From Eledone cirrhosa (lineage: Eukaryota): DNA of 64,000 bases. The DNA is taken from the NCBI GenBank assembly GCA_964016885.1, contig OZ024760.1:34906001-34970000 (forward strand), read 5' to 3'. Under the pieces are notes generated by a model. It was not told the origin of the DNA. It saw nothing but the letters and a program-made list of their open reading frames with translations, and made no database searches. Shown here one piece after another: positions 11,548-60,761 of this stretch (its first letter is position 1; every line of letters starts with the position of its first letter). Made by a program: the position numbers and the translations under genes.

Positions 11548-12702
11548 ATATATATGTATATATATATATATGTATATATATGTATATATATGTATATATA
11601 TATATATGTATATATATGTATATGTATATGTATATGTATATATATATATGTATATATATATATATATGTATATATATATATATATGTATATATATATATA
11701 TGTATATATATATATATATATATGTATATATATATGTGTATATATATGTATATATATATTATGTATATATATGTATATATATATTATGTATATATATGTA
11801 TATATATATGATGTATATATATATATATGTATATATATATGATGTATATATATATATATATATGATGTATATATATATATGATGTATATATATATATGTA
11901 TATATATATGATGTATATATATATATATGTATATATATATGATGTATATATATATATATGATGTATATATATATATATGATGTATATATATATATATATG
12001 TATATATATATGATGTATATATATATGATATATATGTATATATATATGATGTATATATATATGATATATATGTATATATATATGATATATATGTATATAT
12101 ATGTATATATATATGTATATATATATGTATATATATATATGTATATATATATGTGTATATATATATGTGTGTAGATATGTATGTATATATATGTATATAT
12201 ATATGTATATATATATATATGTATATATATATATGTATATATATATGTATATATATATGTATATATATATGTATATATATATGTATATATATATGTATAT
12301 ATATATGTATATATATATGTATATATATATATATGTATATATATATGTATATATATATGTATATTTATATGTATATATGTATGTATATATGTATATATGT
12401 ATGTATATATGTATATATATATATGTATATATATATGTATATATATGTATATATATATGTATATATGTATATATATATGTTTATATATATATGTTTATAT
12501 ATATATATATGTTTCTGGATTTATCTAGCAAGATTCTTTATCTGAAAACGTGTGTTGAAACCGATATTGTTATACTTTGGGAGGGTCACGTTGCCAATAA
12601 GAAACACATGCACCAGGTGCTTTCACTCCAATTTATTATAAATTAAATTATAAATTTCCGGTTGGTTGGTTGGTTCCACAACCGGACGGTTGTTCATATA
12701 TT

Positions 12703-12745
12703 GTCAAAGTTCTTTCGTCACACATTCTGTGACCTCTTCAGTGAC
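12703..12745 (-). ncRNA. Type I hammerhead ribozyme motif (family A)
   Basis: GUCA CUGAAGA G GUCACA gaaug UGUGAC GAAA GAAC UU UGAC. Confidence 0.8.
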
Positions 12746-12930
12746 TAGGGATCCTTTTCTTTGTTTTGTGCCTCTCCTTTGTTCTGTCCTACGCCATCTT
12801 GTTTTTTGTGAGTGTTGTGTGCTTAGTTTGCACATGTGTGACATCCGGGTGTCTGTGTGTTTTTATTTGTTTATTTACATGTTACTGGTTGGTTGTTTGT
12901 TCTATGTGTGTGTGTGTTTTCATTTTGTCC

Positions 12931-13385
12931 TTAATTGTATGTTGTGATGTTGCTGTTCCATTCATGTTTTCTATTTAATTTTGGTTGGAGTTCATTTATG
13001 TTTATTGCCTCTGATTTGTCTAAACTTTGCGTCTTTTCTGTGTGTAGATTCTATTTTTATTTCTATGTTCTATTTTAGCATGTTAGTGGAGTAGTGATGA
13101 TTCTTTTTTATCTTGAAGTTCTCGCCAGTGTTCATTTAACCGTTCTCCTATACTACGAGCTGTCTCACCTAGGTACACTATATTCTTATCTTTGTCTTTC
13201 AGTACATCTTATGCTATATACTACATTTCTAGTTTTACAGTTAATATGGGGGCTTAGTTTACAGATTAGGCATTCCTTATCTATACAGGGAGGTCTTTGA
13301 AAAGGGTATGTATTGCTAATAAGAGTTTTTATGGAGGTAACTGGTGTTTCTACTATCTTAATATTAAGTTTATGTTTATCTAGAA
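12931..13385 (-). pseudogene. GIY-YIG endonuclease remnant of a Penelope-like element
   Basis: CIDKECLICKLSPHINCKTRNVVYSIRCTE, then a frameshift, then KDKNIVYLGETARSIGERLNEH...RQI.EAININELQPKLNRKHEW. This gives the Cys cluster, VVY/YLG motifs, catalytic R, E and N. Confidence 0.85.
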
Positions 13386-13844
13386 AGAACTTTGACAATA
13401 TATGAACAACCATCCTGTTATGGAACGAACCAACCAACTGGAAATTTATAAATTTAATTTATAATAAATTGGACTGAAAGCAACTGGTGCGTGTGTTTCT
13501 TATTGGCAACATTATCCTCCCAAAGCATAAAAATATATATATGTGTATATATATATATATGTATATGTATATATATATGTATATATATATATTTGTATAT
13601 ATGTATATATATATATTTGTATATATATATATTTGTATATATATATATTTGTATATATATATGTATATATATATATTTGTATATATGTATATATATGTAT
13701 ATATATATGTATATATATTTGTATATATATATTTGTATATATATATGTATATATATATATGTATATATATATATATATGTATATATATATATATATGTAT
13801 ATGTATGTATATATATGTATATATATATATATGTATATATATAT

Positions 13845-13983
13845 ATTAAAATACAAATATTAATAAAATAGATATTCTTTTGATCAATTACATTTTATTA
13901 TACATATTTCGCAGGTACAACAGTACGTCCGCTCAGACAAAATATAATGATACATTGAATCTTGTTTAACTCTTTAATATGAT
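13845..13983 (-). mobile_element. Short dispersed repeat, family B (inverted copy at 16254-16391), with a decayed hammerhead-like motif
   Basis: At 16293-16346 (+): uauuuugu CUGAGA GGAcGUAC uguu GUACcUCC GAAA UAUGUA UA. The core is one nt short of CUGANGA. Confidence 0.55.
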
Positions 13984-14164
13984 ATATATATATATATGTA
14001 TATATATATGTATATATGTATATATATATATATATATGTATATATGTATATGTATATATATATGTATATATATATATATATATGTATATATGTATATGTA
14101 TATATATATGTATATATATATATATATGTATATATATATATATATGTATATATATATGTATATA

Positions 14165-14498
14165 TAGATAAATCTACCAAAAGTTTACGGTAGTGTCCAA
14201 TCCGTATTAAGAACTCAATGTAATCCGGATATCATGGAAAGAAGAGATGCATTCAAAAATCACTTTCGGTGAAAGATAAACGGAATACAGAGTCAAGATA
14301 AAATATTAAAAAAATAATGAATAAAACAAAGAAACAGTTCCTTATATTAAACAAAAAAAGTTCATTATTTTACGATCGTTTCTAGGACATATATGTGTTA
14401 GAATTGGCATGCATATTCAAAAGATCTATGTACAAAATTATACAAACTATCAAGGAGAATATACATACCATCACATATATATGCTGTCTTCAGAAATA
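14165..14498 (-). mobile_element. Family C element, copy 1, with a long-helix-II hammerhead at 14363-14498
   Basis: Homologous to 43882-44220 and 45426-45988. Confidence 0.8.
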
Positions 14499-58032: not shown

Positions 58033-58317
58033 TATATGTATATATATATATTTATGTATATGTTTATGTATATATATATATATATATATTTATTTATATA
58101 TATATATTTGTATGTATATATATTTGTATGTACATATATTTGTATGCTTATATATTTGTATGTATATATATTTGTATATATAAATATTTGTATATATATA
58201 TATAGTTATACATATATATATGTATATTTATATATATAGTTATACATATATATATATATATATTTATATAAATATTTATATATGTATACTTATATTTGTA
58301 TATATATATATATAAAT

Positions 58318-58848
58318 ATAGTATCTAGAATAAGGACGGGTTGGAAGAAGTTTAGGGAGCTGCTTCCTTTGTTGACAAAGAAGGGTTTCTCCCTGCATAC
58401 GAAAGAACTGTTAAATGATGCCTGTGTGAGATGCACGATGCTGCATGGTAGTGAGACATGGGCAGCAACTGCAGAGGATATGTAACGGCTGGAGAGAAAT
58501 GAATCAAGTATGCCCCGTTGGATGTGCAATGTCAATGTGCATGAACGACCAAGCATAGACGAGTTGAGAAAGAAACTGGGTATAAGAGGGATAGAATGTA
58601 GTGTGCGAGAGAGGAGACTGCGGTTGTATGGACATGTGATGTGCATGGAGGATGACCGCTGGGTAAAGAAATCCCAATAGAAGGAAGACGCAGTAAAGGT
58701 CAACCACATAAAACATGGGCAGTGATGCTGAGAGCAGACCTCAGATCTCACCGAGGAGATGACGAAGGACCATTACAAGTGGAGAGAGCTGTGCTGAATA
58801 GGACCCGTCCAACCCTTGCAAGGAAAAGCGGACGTAAAATGATGATGA
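58318..58848 (+). mobile_element. 3' fragment of the second RTE family
   Basis: [19 protein letters not shown]... and a gcggacgtaaaatgatgat tail. Confidence 0.88.
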
Positions 58849-58887
58849 TATATATATATATATAATTATATATATATATATATTTAT

Positions 58888-59366
58888 ACATGTAAAGTTA
58901 TATTTAAAATTGTTGGGTTACAACTAGTAAATATTTATAACTGATATAAAAGCACTCGACAAATATTTGGAGTATATTTACAATATTAAATAAATGGAAA
59001 ACTATATTTATAAAACCATATTTATTTCATTATATATATTTCGGGGATATCATATTAACAATATGCTATGCCTTCATCAGACAAAATACAATATAAACAG
59101 TTTTATAGATAAATATATTCGACATACCGTAATAAACATCAACTTCATTTGGAGAGGTTTACGCTAGCAGTCACCTGCTAGCGTAAACCTCTCCAAATGA
59201 AGTTGATGTTTATTACGGTATGTCGAATATATTTATCTATAAAACTGTTTATATTGTATTTTGTCTGATGAAGGCATAGCATATTGTTAATATGATATCC
59301 CCGAAATATATATAATGAAATAAATATGGTTTTATAAATATAGTTTTCCATTTATTTAATATTGTA
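58888..59366. mobile_element. Fold-back element, family D, copy 2 (192-bp arms, 4-nt loop 59171-59174)
   Basis: 58979-59170 pairs with 59175-59366; tail at 58888-58978. Confidence 0.9.
59257..59322 (+). ncRNA. Type I hammerhead ribozyme motif (family D)
   Basis: UAUUUUGU CUGAUGA a GGcAUAgCAUAUU guu AAUAUGaUAUcCC c GAAA UAUAUA UA AUGAAAUA; other copies at 59023-59088 (-) and 61901-61966 (-). Confidence 0.78.
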
Positions 59367-59789
59367 TATATTTATATATATTTATATATATATATATATA
59401 TTTATATATATATATATATATTTATATATATATATATATATTTATATATATATATATATATTTATATATATATATATATTTATATATATATTTATATTTA
59501 TATATATATTTATATATATATATATATATTTATATATATATATATATATATTTATATATATATATATAAATATATATATATATATATAAATATATATATA
59601 TATATATTTATATATATATATATATATATTTATATATATATATATATATATTTATATATATATATATAAATATATATATATATATATTTATATATATATA
59701 TATATATTTATATATATATATATATATATTTATATATATATTTATTTATATATATATTTATATATATATTTATTTATATATATATATAT

Positions 59790-60380
59790 ATATTGTTATA
59801 CTTTGGGAGGGTCATGTTGCCAATAAGAAACACACGCACCAGTTGCTTTCACTTCAATTTATTATATATTTATAAATTTATAAATTTACAAATTTACAAA
59901 CCTATAAATTTCTGGTTGGTTGGTTGGTTCCACAACCAGATAGTTGTTTATATATAGTCATAGTCCTTTCGTCACACACTCTGTGACCTCTTCAGTGACT
60001 GGGGATTCCTTTCTTCGTTTCTGTGCCTTTCCTTTCTTCTATCCTACGCCATTTTGAAACAAAATGGCGTAGGATAGAAGAAAGGAAAGGCACAGAAACG
60101 AAGAAAGGAATCCCCAGTCACTGAAGAGGTCACAGAGTGTGTGACGAAAGGACTATGACTATATATAAACAACTATCTGGTTGTGGAACCAACCAACCAA
60201 CCAGAAATTTATAGGTTTGTAAATTTGTAAATTTATAAATTTATAAATATATAATAAATTGAAGTGAAAGCAACTGGTGCGTGTGTTTCTTATTGGCAAC
60301 ATGACCCTCCCAAAGTATAACAATATCGGTTTCAACACACGATTTCAGATGAAGAATCTTGCTAAACAAATTCAGAAACG
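59790..60380. mobile_element. Family A fold-back element, copy 4 (near-perfect palindrome, centre ~60058)
   Basis: cgccattttg-aaa-caaaatggcg turn; hammerheads at 59956-60000 (-) and 60116-60160 (+). Confidence 0.88.
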
Positions 60381-60457
60381 AAATATATATATATATTTAT
60401 ATATATATATATATTTATATATATATATTTATATATATATATATATATATATATATA

Positions 60458-60761
60458 TAGGAGGTGGGTTTTATTGTAGTACAATAAAGCAATGCAGATA
60501 TCGGATAACAAGCACTCTACAGTTTGTAGGACTGGAGTATACATAATACATAAGAACAAAAGATGGTTAAAAGAGTTCCATGTATTTTATTATGCGCATA
60601 TGTTGATTTAAAACTGCACTATCCACAAGTGTTTTTTAACCTTCATATCATGTCTTCCTGTTTTATCTGATGAAAACACAAATATTATTGCATGATGATA
60701 TTTGTTTTTGAAATGCGCATAATAAAATACATGGAACTCTTTTAACCATCTTTTGTTCTTA
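60458..60761. mobile_element. Family E short fold-back copy
   Basis: Same two outer termini as 23036-25713; hammerhead at 60659-60729 (+). Confidence 0.85.

What the first reader, a model, noticed from the sequence alone, without database searches (positions are those of the whole stretch)
12511..60761. Shared asymmetric architecture: fixed short-arm end, tailed long arm, variable turn-around
Seen: in all four family A copies one arm stops at ...CCCAAAG(T/C)ATAA(C/A)AATA(T), while the other runs ~55 nt further to ...CAGAAA. The fold-back centre differs in every copy. Both E copies share both termini (short arm ends CATCTTTTG.TCTTA, ~90-nt tail), and the D copies behave the same way. Single copies of C, G, I and L also show one tailed arm. 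Inferred: two defined priming or termination sites on the RNA plus a random snap-back or template switch, which would be a mechanistic footprint of PLE integration.
Basis: partly seen in the sequence, partly recalled or inferred. Interest (0 to 1): 0.75.

Follow-up and report, generated by a model that had tools for sequence, protein, structure and literature searches.

The report
Penelope retrotransposon insertions with one-sided tails
These mirror-image repeats are insertions of Penelope-type jumping genes with a known layout (one arm ends at a fixed point, the other carries an extra tail), and their statistics suggest that both ends of a cut TA-repeat likely start copying the same RNA at two different fixed sites rather than one copy folding back on itself.

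Summary
Families A, D and E are Penelope-like elements (PLEs): A has a telomerase-like RT, GIY-YIG endonuclease and hammerhead; D and E have Hydra-type endonucleases. The layout (inverted truncated copy, one-sided tail) and the two reverse-transcription start sites are published. What the papers read do not show: tails of 60-170 nt; either arm can reach further inward (19 vs 15), also in young copies; both arms share subfamily alleles (235 of 241) and, in rare copies, private A-to-G editing marks. This favours priming from both target ends on one RNA over snap-back or a termination site. The centre is not random: it has family-specific hot spots, likely the RNA's 5' end, and is not at the hammerhead cut. 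The scan noted this architecture and reading before on other DNA of this genome. Raw long reads and RNA ends were not available.

The parts
12511..13536 (.). Family A copy 1: tailed arm left (to -897, includes a decayed endonuclease-region frame), untailed arm right (to -179), junction near 13383; old copy, arms about 11% different
51126..52002 (.). Family A copy 2: untailed arm left (to -440, the longer one inward), tailed arm right (to -310), junction 51640-51647
53926..54438 (.). Family A copy 3: untailed arm left (to -203), tailed arm right (to -272, hot spot), junction 54117-54121; GTATATAAATAT on both flanks, a candidate target duplication
59790..60386 (.). Family A copy 4: near-perfect palindrome (-265/-269, hot spot), tail 60326-60386
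60116..60160 (+). Minimal type I hammerhead motif of family A (CUGAAGA core, 6-bp stem II, 5-bp stem I, predicted cut after 60155, 170 nt before the short end); same motif in 6 A arms of the window
   Evidence: own descriptor; Rfam finds no hammerhead here
13189..13458 (-). Remnant of the family A ORF (linker with the Cys motif before the GIY-YIG domain)
   Evidence: matches the intact frame in L032
23032..25713 (.). Family E copy 1: tailed arm left with a partial tandem repeat, untailed arm right, centre near 24523; arms include the end of a Hydra-type endonuclease frame
60458..60761 (.). Family E copy 2: tailed arm left (to -48), untailed arm right (to -161), junction near 60599
50521..50935 (.). 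Family D copy 1: untailed arm left, tailed arm right, junction near 50670
58887..59366 (.). Family D copy 2: tailed arm left, untailed arm right, centre 59172 at the family's hot spot (TCACTGCTAGCG)
61857..64000 (.). Family D copy 3: untailed arm left, centre near 63253, tailed arm ends about 0.8 kb beyond the window
45427..45988 (.). Family B palindrome, tailed arm left (tail about 134 nt), centre 45775; two single tailed arms at 14165-14498 and 43882-44219 start at the same inner base
26660..27302 (.). Single palindrome (presumed C), tailed arm left (about 128 nt); the other arm is cut by a LINE 3' fragment 8 nt before the untailed end seen in another copy
31411..31775 (.). Single palindrome (presumed G), tail about 66 nt on the right
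55766..56046 (.). Single palindrome (presumed I), tail about 83 nt on the right
36284..38836 (.). Single long inverted pair (presumed L), tail about 169 nt on the right

Best explanation
These are head-to-head insertions of Penelope-like retrotransposons into (TA)n repeats, and each is likely made by two target-primed reverse transcriptions, one from each end of the cut DNA, that would start at two different fixed sites on one RNA molecule. Shown: element identity (A, D, E), two fixed outer ends, one of each per insertion, independent inward lengths, shared alleles and shared private edits, clustered inner ends. Inferred: (1) the element protein, possibly a dimer, nicks both strands of a TA repeat; (2) one 3' end primes at the downstream site (tailed arm), the other at the upstream site (untailed arm), in family A helped by pairing of the TA primer with the AUAU that ends both sites; (3) each cDNA stops independently, often at the RNA's 5' end, which would be the start site of the pLTR promoter and would explain the hot spots and the many short palindromes; (4) the two cDNA ends are joined with short overlaps or fillers and filled in. 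Short local fold-backs occur at some junctions but are not what builds the second arm.
For: Identity: a full-length copy shows inverted untailed arm + partial pLTR + 1,180-aa frame + tailed pLTR; RVT_1 E 9e-5 and GIY-YIG E 2e-4, both below Pfam's cut-off; predicted fold (pLDDT 91.5) has telomerase RTs as its five best matches. Fixed ends: 12,271 tailed and 14,219 untailed of 30,361 anchors; 61 of 121 ends at 0/+1, 57 at +54 to +62 (51 at +61); E 14 untailed, 12 tailed, 4 internal of 30, D 16 and 14 of 30. One of each: 42 of 43 A pairs, 10 of 11 D pairs, 5 of 5 closed E pairs (read). Against copying of one arm from the other: untailed longer 19, tailed longer 15, within 12 nt 8 of 42; no trend with age (rho -0.13, n 38; young pairs 7/8/3 of 18). 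One source: 235 of 241 diagnostic sites agree within insertions, 59% in random pairs. One molecule: an insertion with the untailed arm longer (-497 vs -214) shares 21 of 23 A-to-G changes between arms, and a 26-mer of them occurs only in those two arms in the genome; two more edited pairs share theirs (21 of 21; 11 of 12). Sense template: 4 of 131 arms have an A-to-G excess on the sense strand, none a T-to-C excess. Inner limit: in 9 of 9 A pairs with an arm in the hot spot the partner is not longer (3.7 exceptions expected, P 0.01). AATATCG occurs in the 4.35-kb copy only at the two sites; 109 of 122 ends are followed by ATAT.
Against: Near-symmetric centres are in excess (8 of 42, 2.1 expected, P 0.0006), which snap-back predicts too. 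A perfect palindrome that quickly lost one side of its centre would mimic a longer untailed arm; the age test cannot see deletions made at once. Only 1 of the 3 edited pairs has the geometry that excludes snap-back. One pair differs at 3 diagnostic sites (L136), and in 4 lightly changed pairs the searched A-to-G changes lie wholly or partly in one arm (L233, L235, L236, L244). One D pair breaks the inner-limit rule (-187 with -327). One A pair is tailed on both sides and one D pair on neither. 45 of 131 A arms had no partner by my rule. The lizard PLE starts in vitro at sites not homologous to the cut DNA and at either site on either strand (PMC11167929), so the one-of-each rule has no shown cause. 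The hot spot in A adjoins a CA-rich tract and could be a stall site. No RNA data, no long reads; coding capacity of B, C, G, I, L not shown.
Confidence: 0.66

Rival explanations
1. Snap-back: one cDNA starts at the tail end, folds back on itself and copies itself up to a fixed stop or endonuclease cut at the short end; later deletions at the centre make the arms unequal.
For: Explains one-of-each pairing, shared alleles and shared edits without further assumptions; excess of near-symmetric centres, often at local palindromes; a 13-nt fold-back filler at one junction (L153) and short inverted pieces inside single arms. PMC8557442 ascribes the tail to endonuclease-mediated resolution.
Against: Needs deletions of up to 2 kb on the tailed side in 19 of 42 pairs, also in 7 of 18 young ones; some tailed arms hold only part of the tail (L069, L111, L191); untailed arms occur alone and up to 4 kb long; both sites are RT start sites in vitro (PMC11167929).
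Confidence: 0.17
2. Priming from both ends, but on two RNA molecules held by a protein dimer and drawn from the same source locus.
For: Fits independent lengths and allele sharing; a dimer is predicted for the lizard PLE (PMC11167929); one chimeric-looking pair and one-arm A-to-G changes exist; avoids displacement of one cDNA by the other.
Against: Dense private edits are shared by both arms in 3 of 3 hyper-edited pairs that overlap in the edited zone, and for the one pair tested no third genomic copy carries them.
Confidence: 0.12
3. Self-priming on an antisense RNA template, as proposed for rotifer PLEs (PMC3846280).
For: Head-to-head geometry with palindromic junctions.
Against: Editing marks are A-to-G on the sense strand in 4 of 131 arms and T-to-C in none; sense RNA is the template in vitro (PMC11167929).
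Confidence: 0.03
4. Assembly or amplification fold-back artefacts, or MITE-like DNA transposons.
For: The window's own junctions were not seen in raw reads.
Against: Arms differ by 0-12%; ends are fixed by element sequence across 26,490 places; arms include RT-endonuclease frames; raw short reads of another run show opposite-strand joints in family A (6 of 15 joints shown, 3 of them at the stretch's edge).
Confidence: 0.02

Closest known systems
Insertions of endonuclease-bearing PLEs with an inverted 5'-truncated copy and an optional 30-40-bp tail (PMC3846280: passages and Discussion read; PMC8557442: passages and section 11 read)
   Same: Partial tandem, head-to-head inverted copy, tail at one end only, AT-rich or (TA)n targets, N-rich insert in the ORF.
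   Different: Tails here are 60 to about 170 nt; pairing and inner ends are counted; those papers ascribe the inversion to antisense self-priming and the tail to endonuclease resolution.
Poseidon PLE of Anolis carolinensis in vitro (PMC11167929: main text and start of methods read, parts 1-2 of 4; supplements not read)
   Same: Two internal RT start sites bounding the tail, near the start of the ORF and downstream of a hammerhead; both target strands cut and extended; hammerhead cut not at element ends.
   Different: Different clades here; family A sites both end in AATAT next to a TA target, whereas the lizard sites are called non-homologous; the text read does not show how the two arms of one insertion are paired or joined.
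Neptune/Nematis clades (family A) and Hydra clade (families D, E) (PMC8557442)
   Same: A: CX4CxxC linker and two Cys plus His residues in the GIY-YIG core; D, E: CxCX5C linker, CxxC in the endonuclease, (TA)n targets.
   Different: No tree was built; Neptune and Nematis were not told apart; RT of D and E seen only in one fragment (L216).
Twin priming of LINE-1 (recalled, no call)
   Same: Both target ends prime on one RNA and give an inversion.
   Different: In L1 the second primer anneals at a chance internal site and the two parts do not overlap; here both sites are fixed and the arms overlap, giving palindromes.

Membership tests
EN+ Penelope-like elements (family A) | Single ORF with RT and C-terminal GIY-YIG endonuclease | tested here: met
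   1,180-aa frame in L032; RVT_1 and GIY-YIG hits below Pfam cut-offs; invariant DD and Cys residues in 89 relatives; no hit when the whole 1,180 aa were scanned
EN+ Penelope-like elements (family A) | Telomerase-like RT | tested here: met
   Five best Foldseek matches are telomerase RTs, E 9e-9 to 4e-7; fold likeness only, no tree
EN+ Penelope-like elements (family A) | pLTRs in partial tandem, inverted 5'-truncated copy, one-sided tail | tested here: met
EN+ Penelope-like elements (family A) | Hammerhead motif in the pLTR | tested here: met
   Own descriptor finds 6 in the window, all in family A; like the minimal motifs in PMC4209133 (passages); Rfam negative
EN+ Penelope-like elements (family A) | Ribozyme, RT and endonuclease activity | not testable with these tools
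   needs biochemistry
Neptune or Nematis clade (family A) | CX2-5CxxC linker and CCHH motif | tested here: met
   read from the frame against PMC8557442
Neptune or Nematis clade (family A) | Placement in an RT tree | not tested
Hydra clade (families D, E) | CxCX5C linker, CxxC (and CxH) in the endonuclease, (TA)n targets | tested here: met
   frames in L164, L169 (E) and L213, L214 (D); CxH seen in E only
Hydra clade (families D, E) | Canonical hammerhead; RWK and DKT motifs | tested here: inconclusive
   CTGATGA...GAAA present but not passed by my strict descriptor; N-terminal motifs not fetched
PLE or PLE-driven element (families B, C, G, I, L) | PLE coding sequence | not tested
   only ends and layout compared
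MITE / DNA transposon | Symmetric terminal inverted repeats and fixed length | tested here: not met
   ends differ by a tail and lengths vary from under 0.2 to over 4 kb

The most novel reading that the evidence does not exclude
PLEs integrate by an ordered two-site mechanism in which one RNA is read twice: the two ends of a cut TA repeat are assigned one each to two fixed start sites, and most genomic copies are made from the 5' end of the element's own mRNA, running off at its start site. Tens of thousands of copies, some stamped with RNA-editing marks, record this at single-molecule level.
Probability: 0.5. Interest if true: 0.7.

Novelty: new member of a known kind. Interest (0 to 1): 0.48.

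Why it matters
How PLEs, the closest mobile relatives of telomerase, build their inverted repeats and tails is named as open in PMC8557442, and three explanations are in print (antisense self-priming, endonuclease resolution, two RT starts). A genome with about 30,000 arms of one family lets these be counted against each other and yields sharp bench predictions: one site per DNA end, one RNA per insertion, inner ends at the RNA start. The layout itself is not new.

Tried and rejected
Rfam over the window gave only microRNA-like hairpin matches below their cut-offs in the 150 of 360 rows shown and no hammerhead at a family A motif. Pfam missed the whole ORF and four window fragments; PDB sequence searches gave only weak RT and GIY-YIG hints. 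A link of centres to the hammerhead cut was rejected. The first 30 loci were chosen with a tail-bearing query and were left out of all end counts. A strict pattern for edited copies returned only the two insertions it was built on; a looser one gave 27 matches, most not hyper-edited (part was cut from view). The apparent E clusters of inner ends (-390, and -156 to -174 in 10 of 34) rest on BLAST ends and were not checked at junctions; -390 comes from a repeat in my reference. Target duplications could not be scored in TA tracts. No raw RNA run and no long-read run was offered; one Hi-C run laid no reads; reads were laid only on the inner part of the pLTR, so outer ends are untested in reads. 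A look-up of earlier findings by sequence was empty.
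Full report
Setting. The window is from a 3.0-Gb animal genome, 26% GC with 24.6 kb of simple repeats. The closest named relative of the family A protein is from Octopus vulgaris (69% identity), so a cephalopod is likely; the species was not determined.

Observation. Self-comparison after masking shows more than a dozen local inverted repeats. The family A end motif occurs 8 times (0.08 expected) as four head-to-head pairs, each with one arm stopping there and one running on. 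E and D behave as described, and so do five other families, whose two ends recur in other loci among 1.08 Mb searched. Tails are 60 nt (A), about 66 (G), 83 (I), 85-92 (D, E), 128 (C), 134 (B) and 169 (L); those of C, I and L rest on few copies.

What it is. Extending family A gave a full-length copy: inverted untailed arm, partial pLTR, a 1,180-aa frame, tailed pLTR. The frame carries RT and GIY-YIG domains (weak Pfam hits), 357 relatives at E 1e-10 or better, and a confident model whose best matches are telomerase RTs. The linker motifs are those of Neptune/Nematis; D and E arms carry Hydra-type endonuclease frames (PMC8557442 section 11). A minimal hammerhead lies 170 nt before the untailed end of A. 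The two ends lie at the start of the ORF as repeated in the pLTR.

Outer ends. Genome-wide, 30,361 exact 20-mers were counted; 12,271 continue into the tail, 14,219 pass straight into a pyrimidine-A repeat, 3,871 were not classified. For detail I took the first 100 listed matches on one contig, the window, and the copies in 350 kb of other stretches. Of 121 ends, 61 lie at 0/+1, 57 at +54 to +62 (51 at +61), 2 at +46/47, 1 runs on into a tandem copy. This sampling needs an intact anchor, so arms cut upstream of it are unseen. Both sites read AATAT then CG, a 7-mer found nowhere else in the 4.35-kb copy, and 109 of 122 ends are followed by ATAT: pairing of a TA primer with the RNA is a fair inference for A; D and E overlap the target by only 2-5 nt.

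Pairing and inner ends. Of 131 arms (those under 28 nt dropped), 86 formed 43 head-to-head pairs by a distance rule; 45 stayed single, among them three evident pairs with long or complex junctions. 42 of 43 pairs are one tailed, one untailed. The untailed arm reaches further inward in 19, the tailed in 15, and 8 are within 12 nt (2.1 expected). Asymmetry does not grow with age. Junctions mostly show overlaps of 0-14 nt or fillers of a few nt; six have fillers of 23-84 nt. Inner ends cluster: A 10 of 84 paired arms at -280 to -261, with no longer partner in 9 of 9 such pairs (P 0.01); D 13 of 34 arms at -185 to -197, with one longer partner; B 7 of 7. They do not cluster at the hammerhead cut (2 of 131).

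One source, likely one molecule. Arms of one insertion agree at 235 of 241 subfamily sites against 59% for random pairs. Two of the 43 pairs carry dense private A-to-G changes in both arms, a third was found by pattern. In one of them the untailed arm is longer, so neither arm can be a plain copy of the other, yet 21 of 23 changes are shared and no third copy exists. Against this stand one pair with 3 discordant sites and four lightly changed pairs with one-arm changes.

Mechanism. The simplest reading is priming from both target ends at two fixed sites of one sense RNA, independent stops that often fall at the RNA's 5' end, and joining of the two cDNA ends. Since the start sites lie near the 5' end of the mRNA, copying from there would yield the many short palindromes; long arms would come from read-through into a second pLTR. 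Steps of cutting, priming, displacement and joining are inferred. Snap-back with prompt central deletion is the main rival and explains the excess of symmetric centres equally well.

Artefact check. Arms differ by 0-12%, and raw short reads of another run hold opposite-strand joints of family A. The window's own junctions and long reads were not available.

What is known. The inverted copy with a one-sided 30-40-bp tail is described in PMC3846280 and PMC8557442; the tail as the stretch between two RT start sites is shown in PMC11167929; hammerhead pairs on opposite strands 100-700 bp apart are noted in PMC4209133 (passages). PMC13282606 (passages) lists Penelope families in O. vulgaris without this anatomy; bioRxiv 10.64898/2026.07.22.740005 (term search only) has no passage on tails or palindromes. 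Searches showed no paper with pairing counts, twin priming (0 occurrences in the 20 of 39 papers listed) or edited copies for PLEs; subscription papers, the older PLE papers cited by these, and all supplements were not seen and may hold such data, the genomic end plots of PMC11167929 above all. Earlier notes of this scan report the same layout, the two-site one-RNA reading, the editing marks and tail hairpins on other pieces of this genome; they are leads, and my counts come from the calls cited.

Verdict. Real, well replicated, and in layout already known: new members of PLE clades. The value lies in the counts that separate published explanations. Interest 0.48.

Noticed in passing
L108, L155 (=L227), L237, L232, L241, L242, L243, L245: Family A arms with dense sense-strand A-to-G changes, likely ADAR-edited RNA written into DNA. 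In such arms the tail is spared (1 of 147 A positions changed) against 135 of 410 between -260 and -141; the tail would be unpaired in a hairpin transcript of a palindrome, or covered by protein.
   Followed up: partly
window 60057-60070; L032: The family A hot spot of inner ends lies just upstream of CAAAATGGCG / CAAGATGGCG, which resembles a YY1 site like that near the start of human L1 (recalled, no call); the D hot spot lies at TCACT, called initiator-like in PMC3846280.
   Followed up: partly
window 14493, 43887, 45766, 45783; L008, L030, L235: All 7 family B arms that reach the CTGAAGAC motif stop a few bases beyond it: a fixed inner end, so B may be a short non-coding unit.
   Followed up: partly
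tails of D, E, C, I, L: A small hairpin (-5.5 to -8.3 kcal/mol, no shuffle control) folds just after the untailed end; weak or absent in A, B, G and not recovered after the tailed end of the one E copy folded. Lead from earlier notes.
   Followed up: partly
L032 ORF: Long asparagine-rich insert before the RT, like those described in rotifer PLEs (PMC3846280); the first 80 codons of this copy are interrupted.
   Followed up: no
window 46990-50390, 32851-33523, 56320-58829, 27303-27400: LINE copies and fragments with AP-endonuclease and RT frames and (GAT)n tails, RTE-like by recall.
   Followed up: no
window about 4250-4350: Exon-like frame of an AGC-type protein kinase (YLAPEV...DWW), the likely host gene (family label recalled).
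   Followed up: no
window 2946-4200: Tandem repeat of a short unit.
   Followed up: no
whole window: 8 family A anchors in 64 kb against 5 in 350 kb of other stretches; the window lies 0.4 Mb from a contig end and 38% of it is simple repeat. Elements often sit in the TA flanks of others.
   Followed up: no
L115, L116, L124, L130, L139: Single arms followed by short inverted pieces from inside the same arm that do not reach either fixed end: possible true fold-backs or damaged second arms.
   Followed up: no
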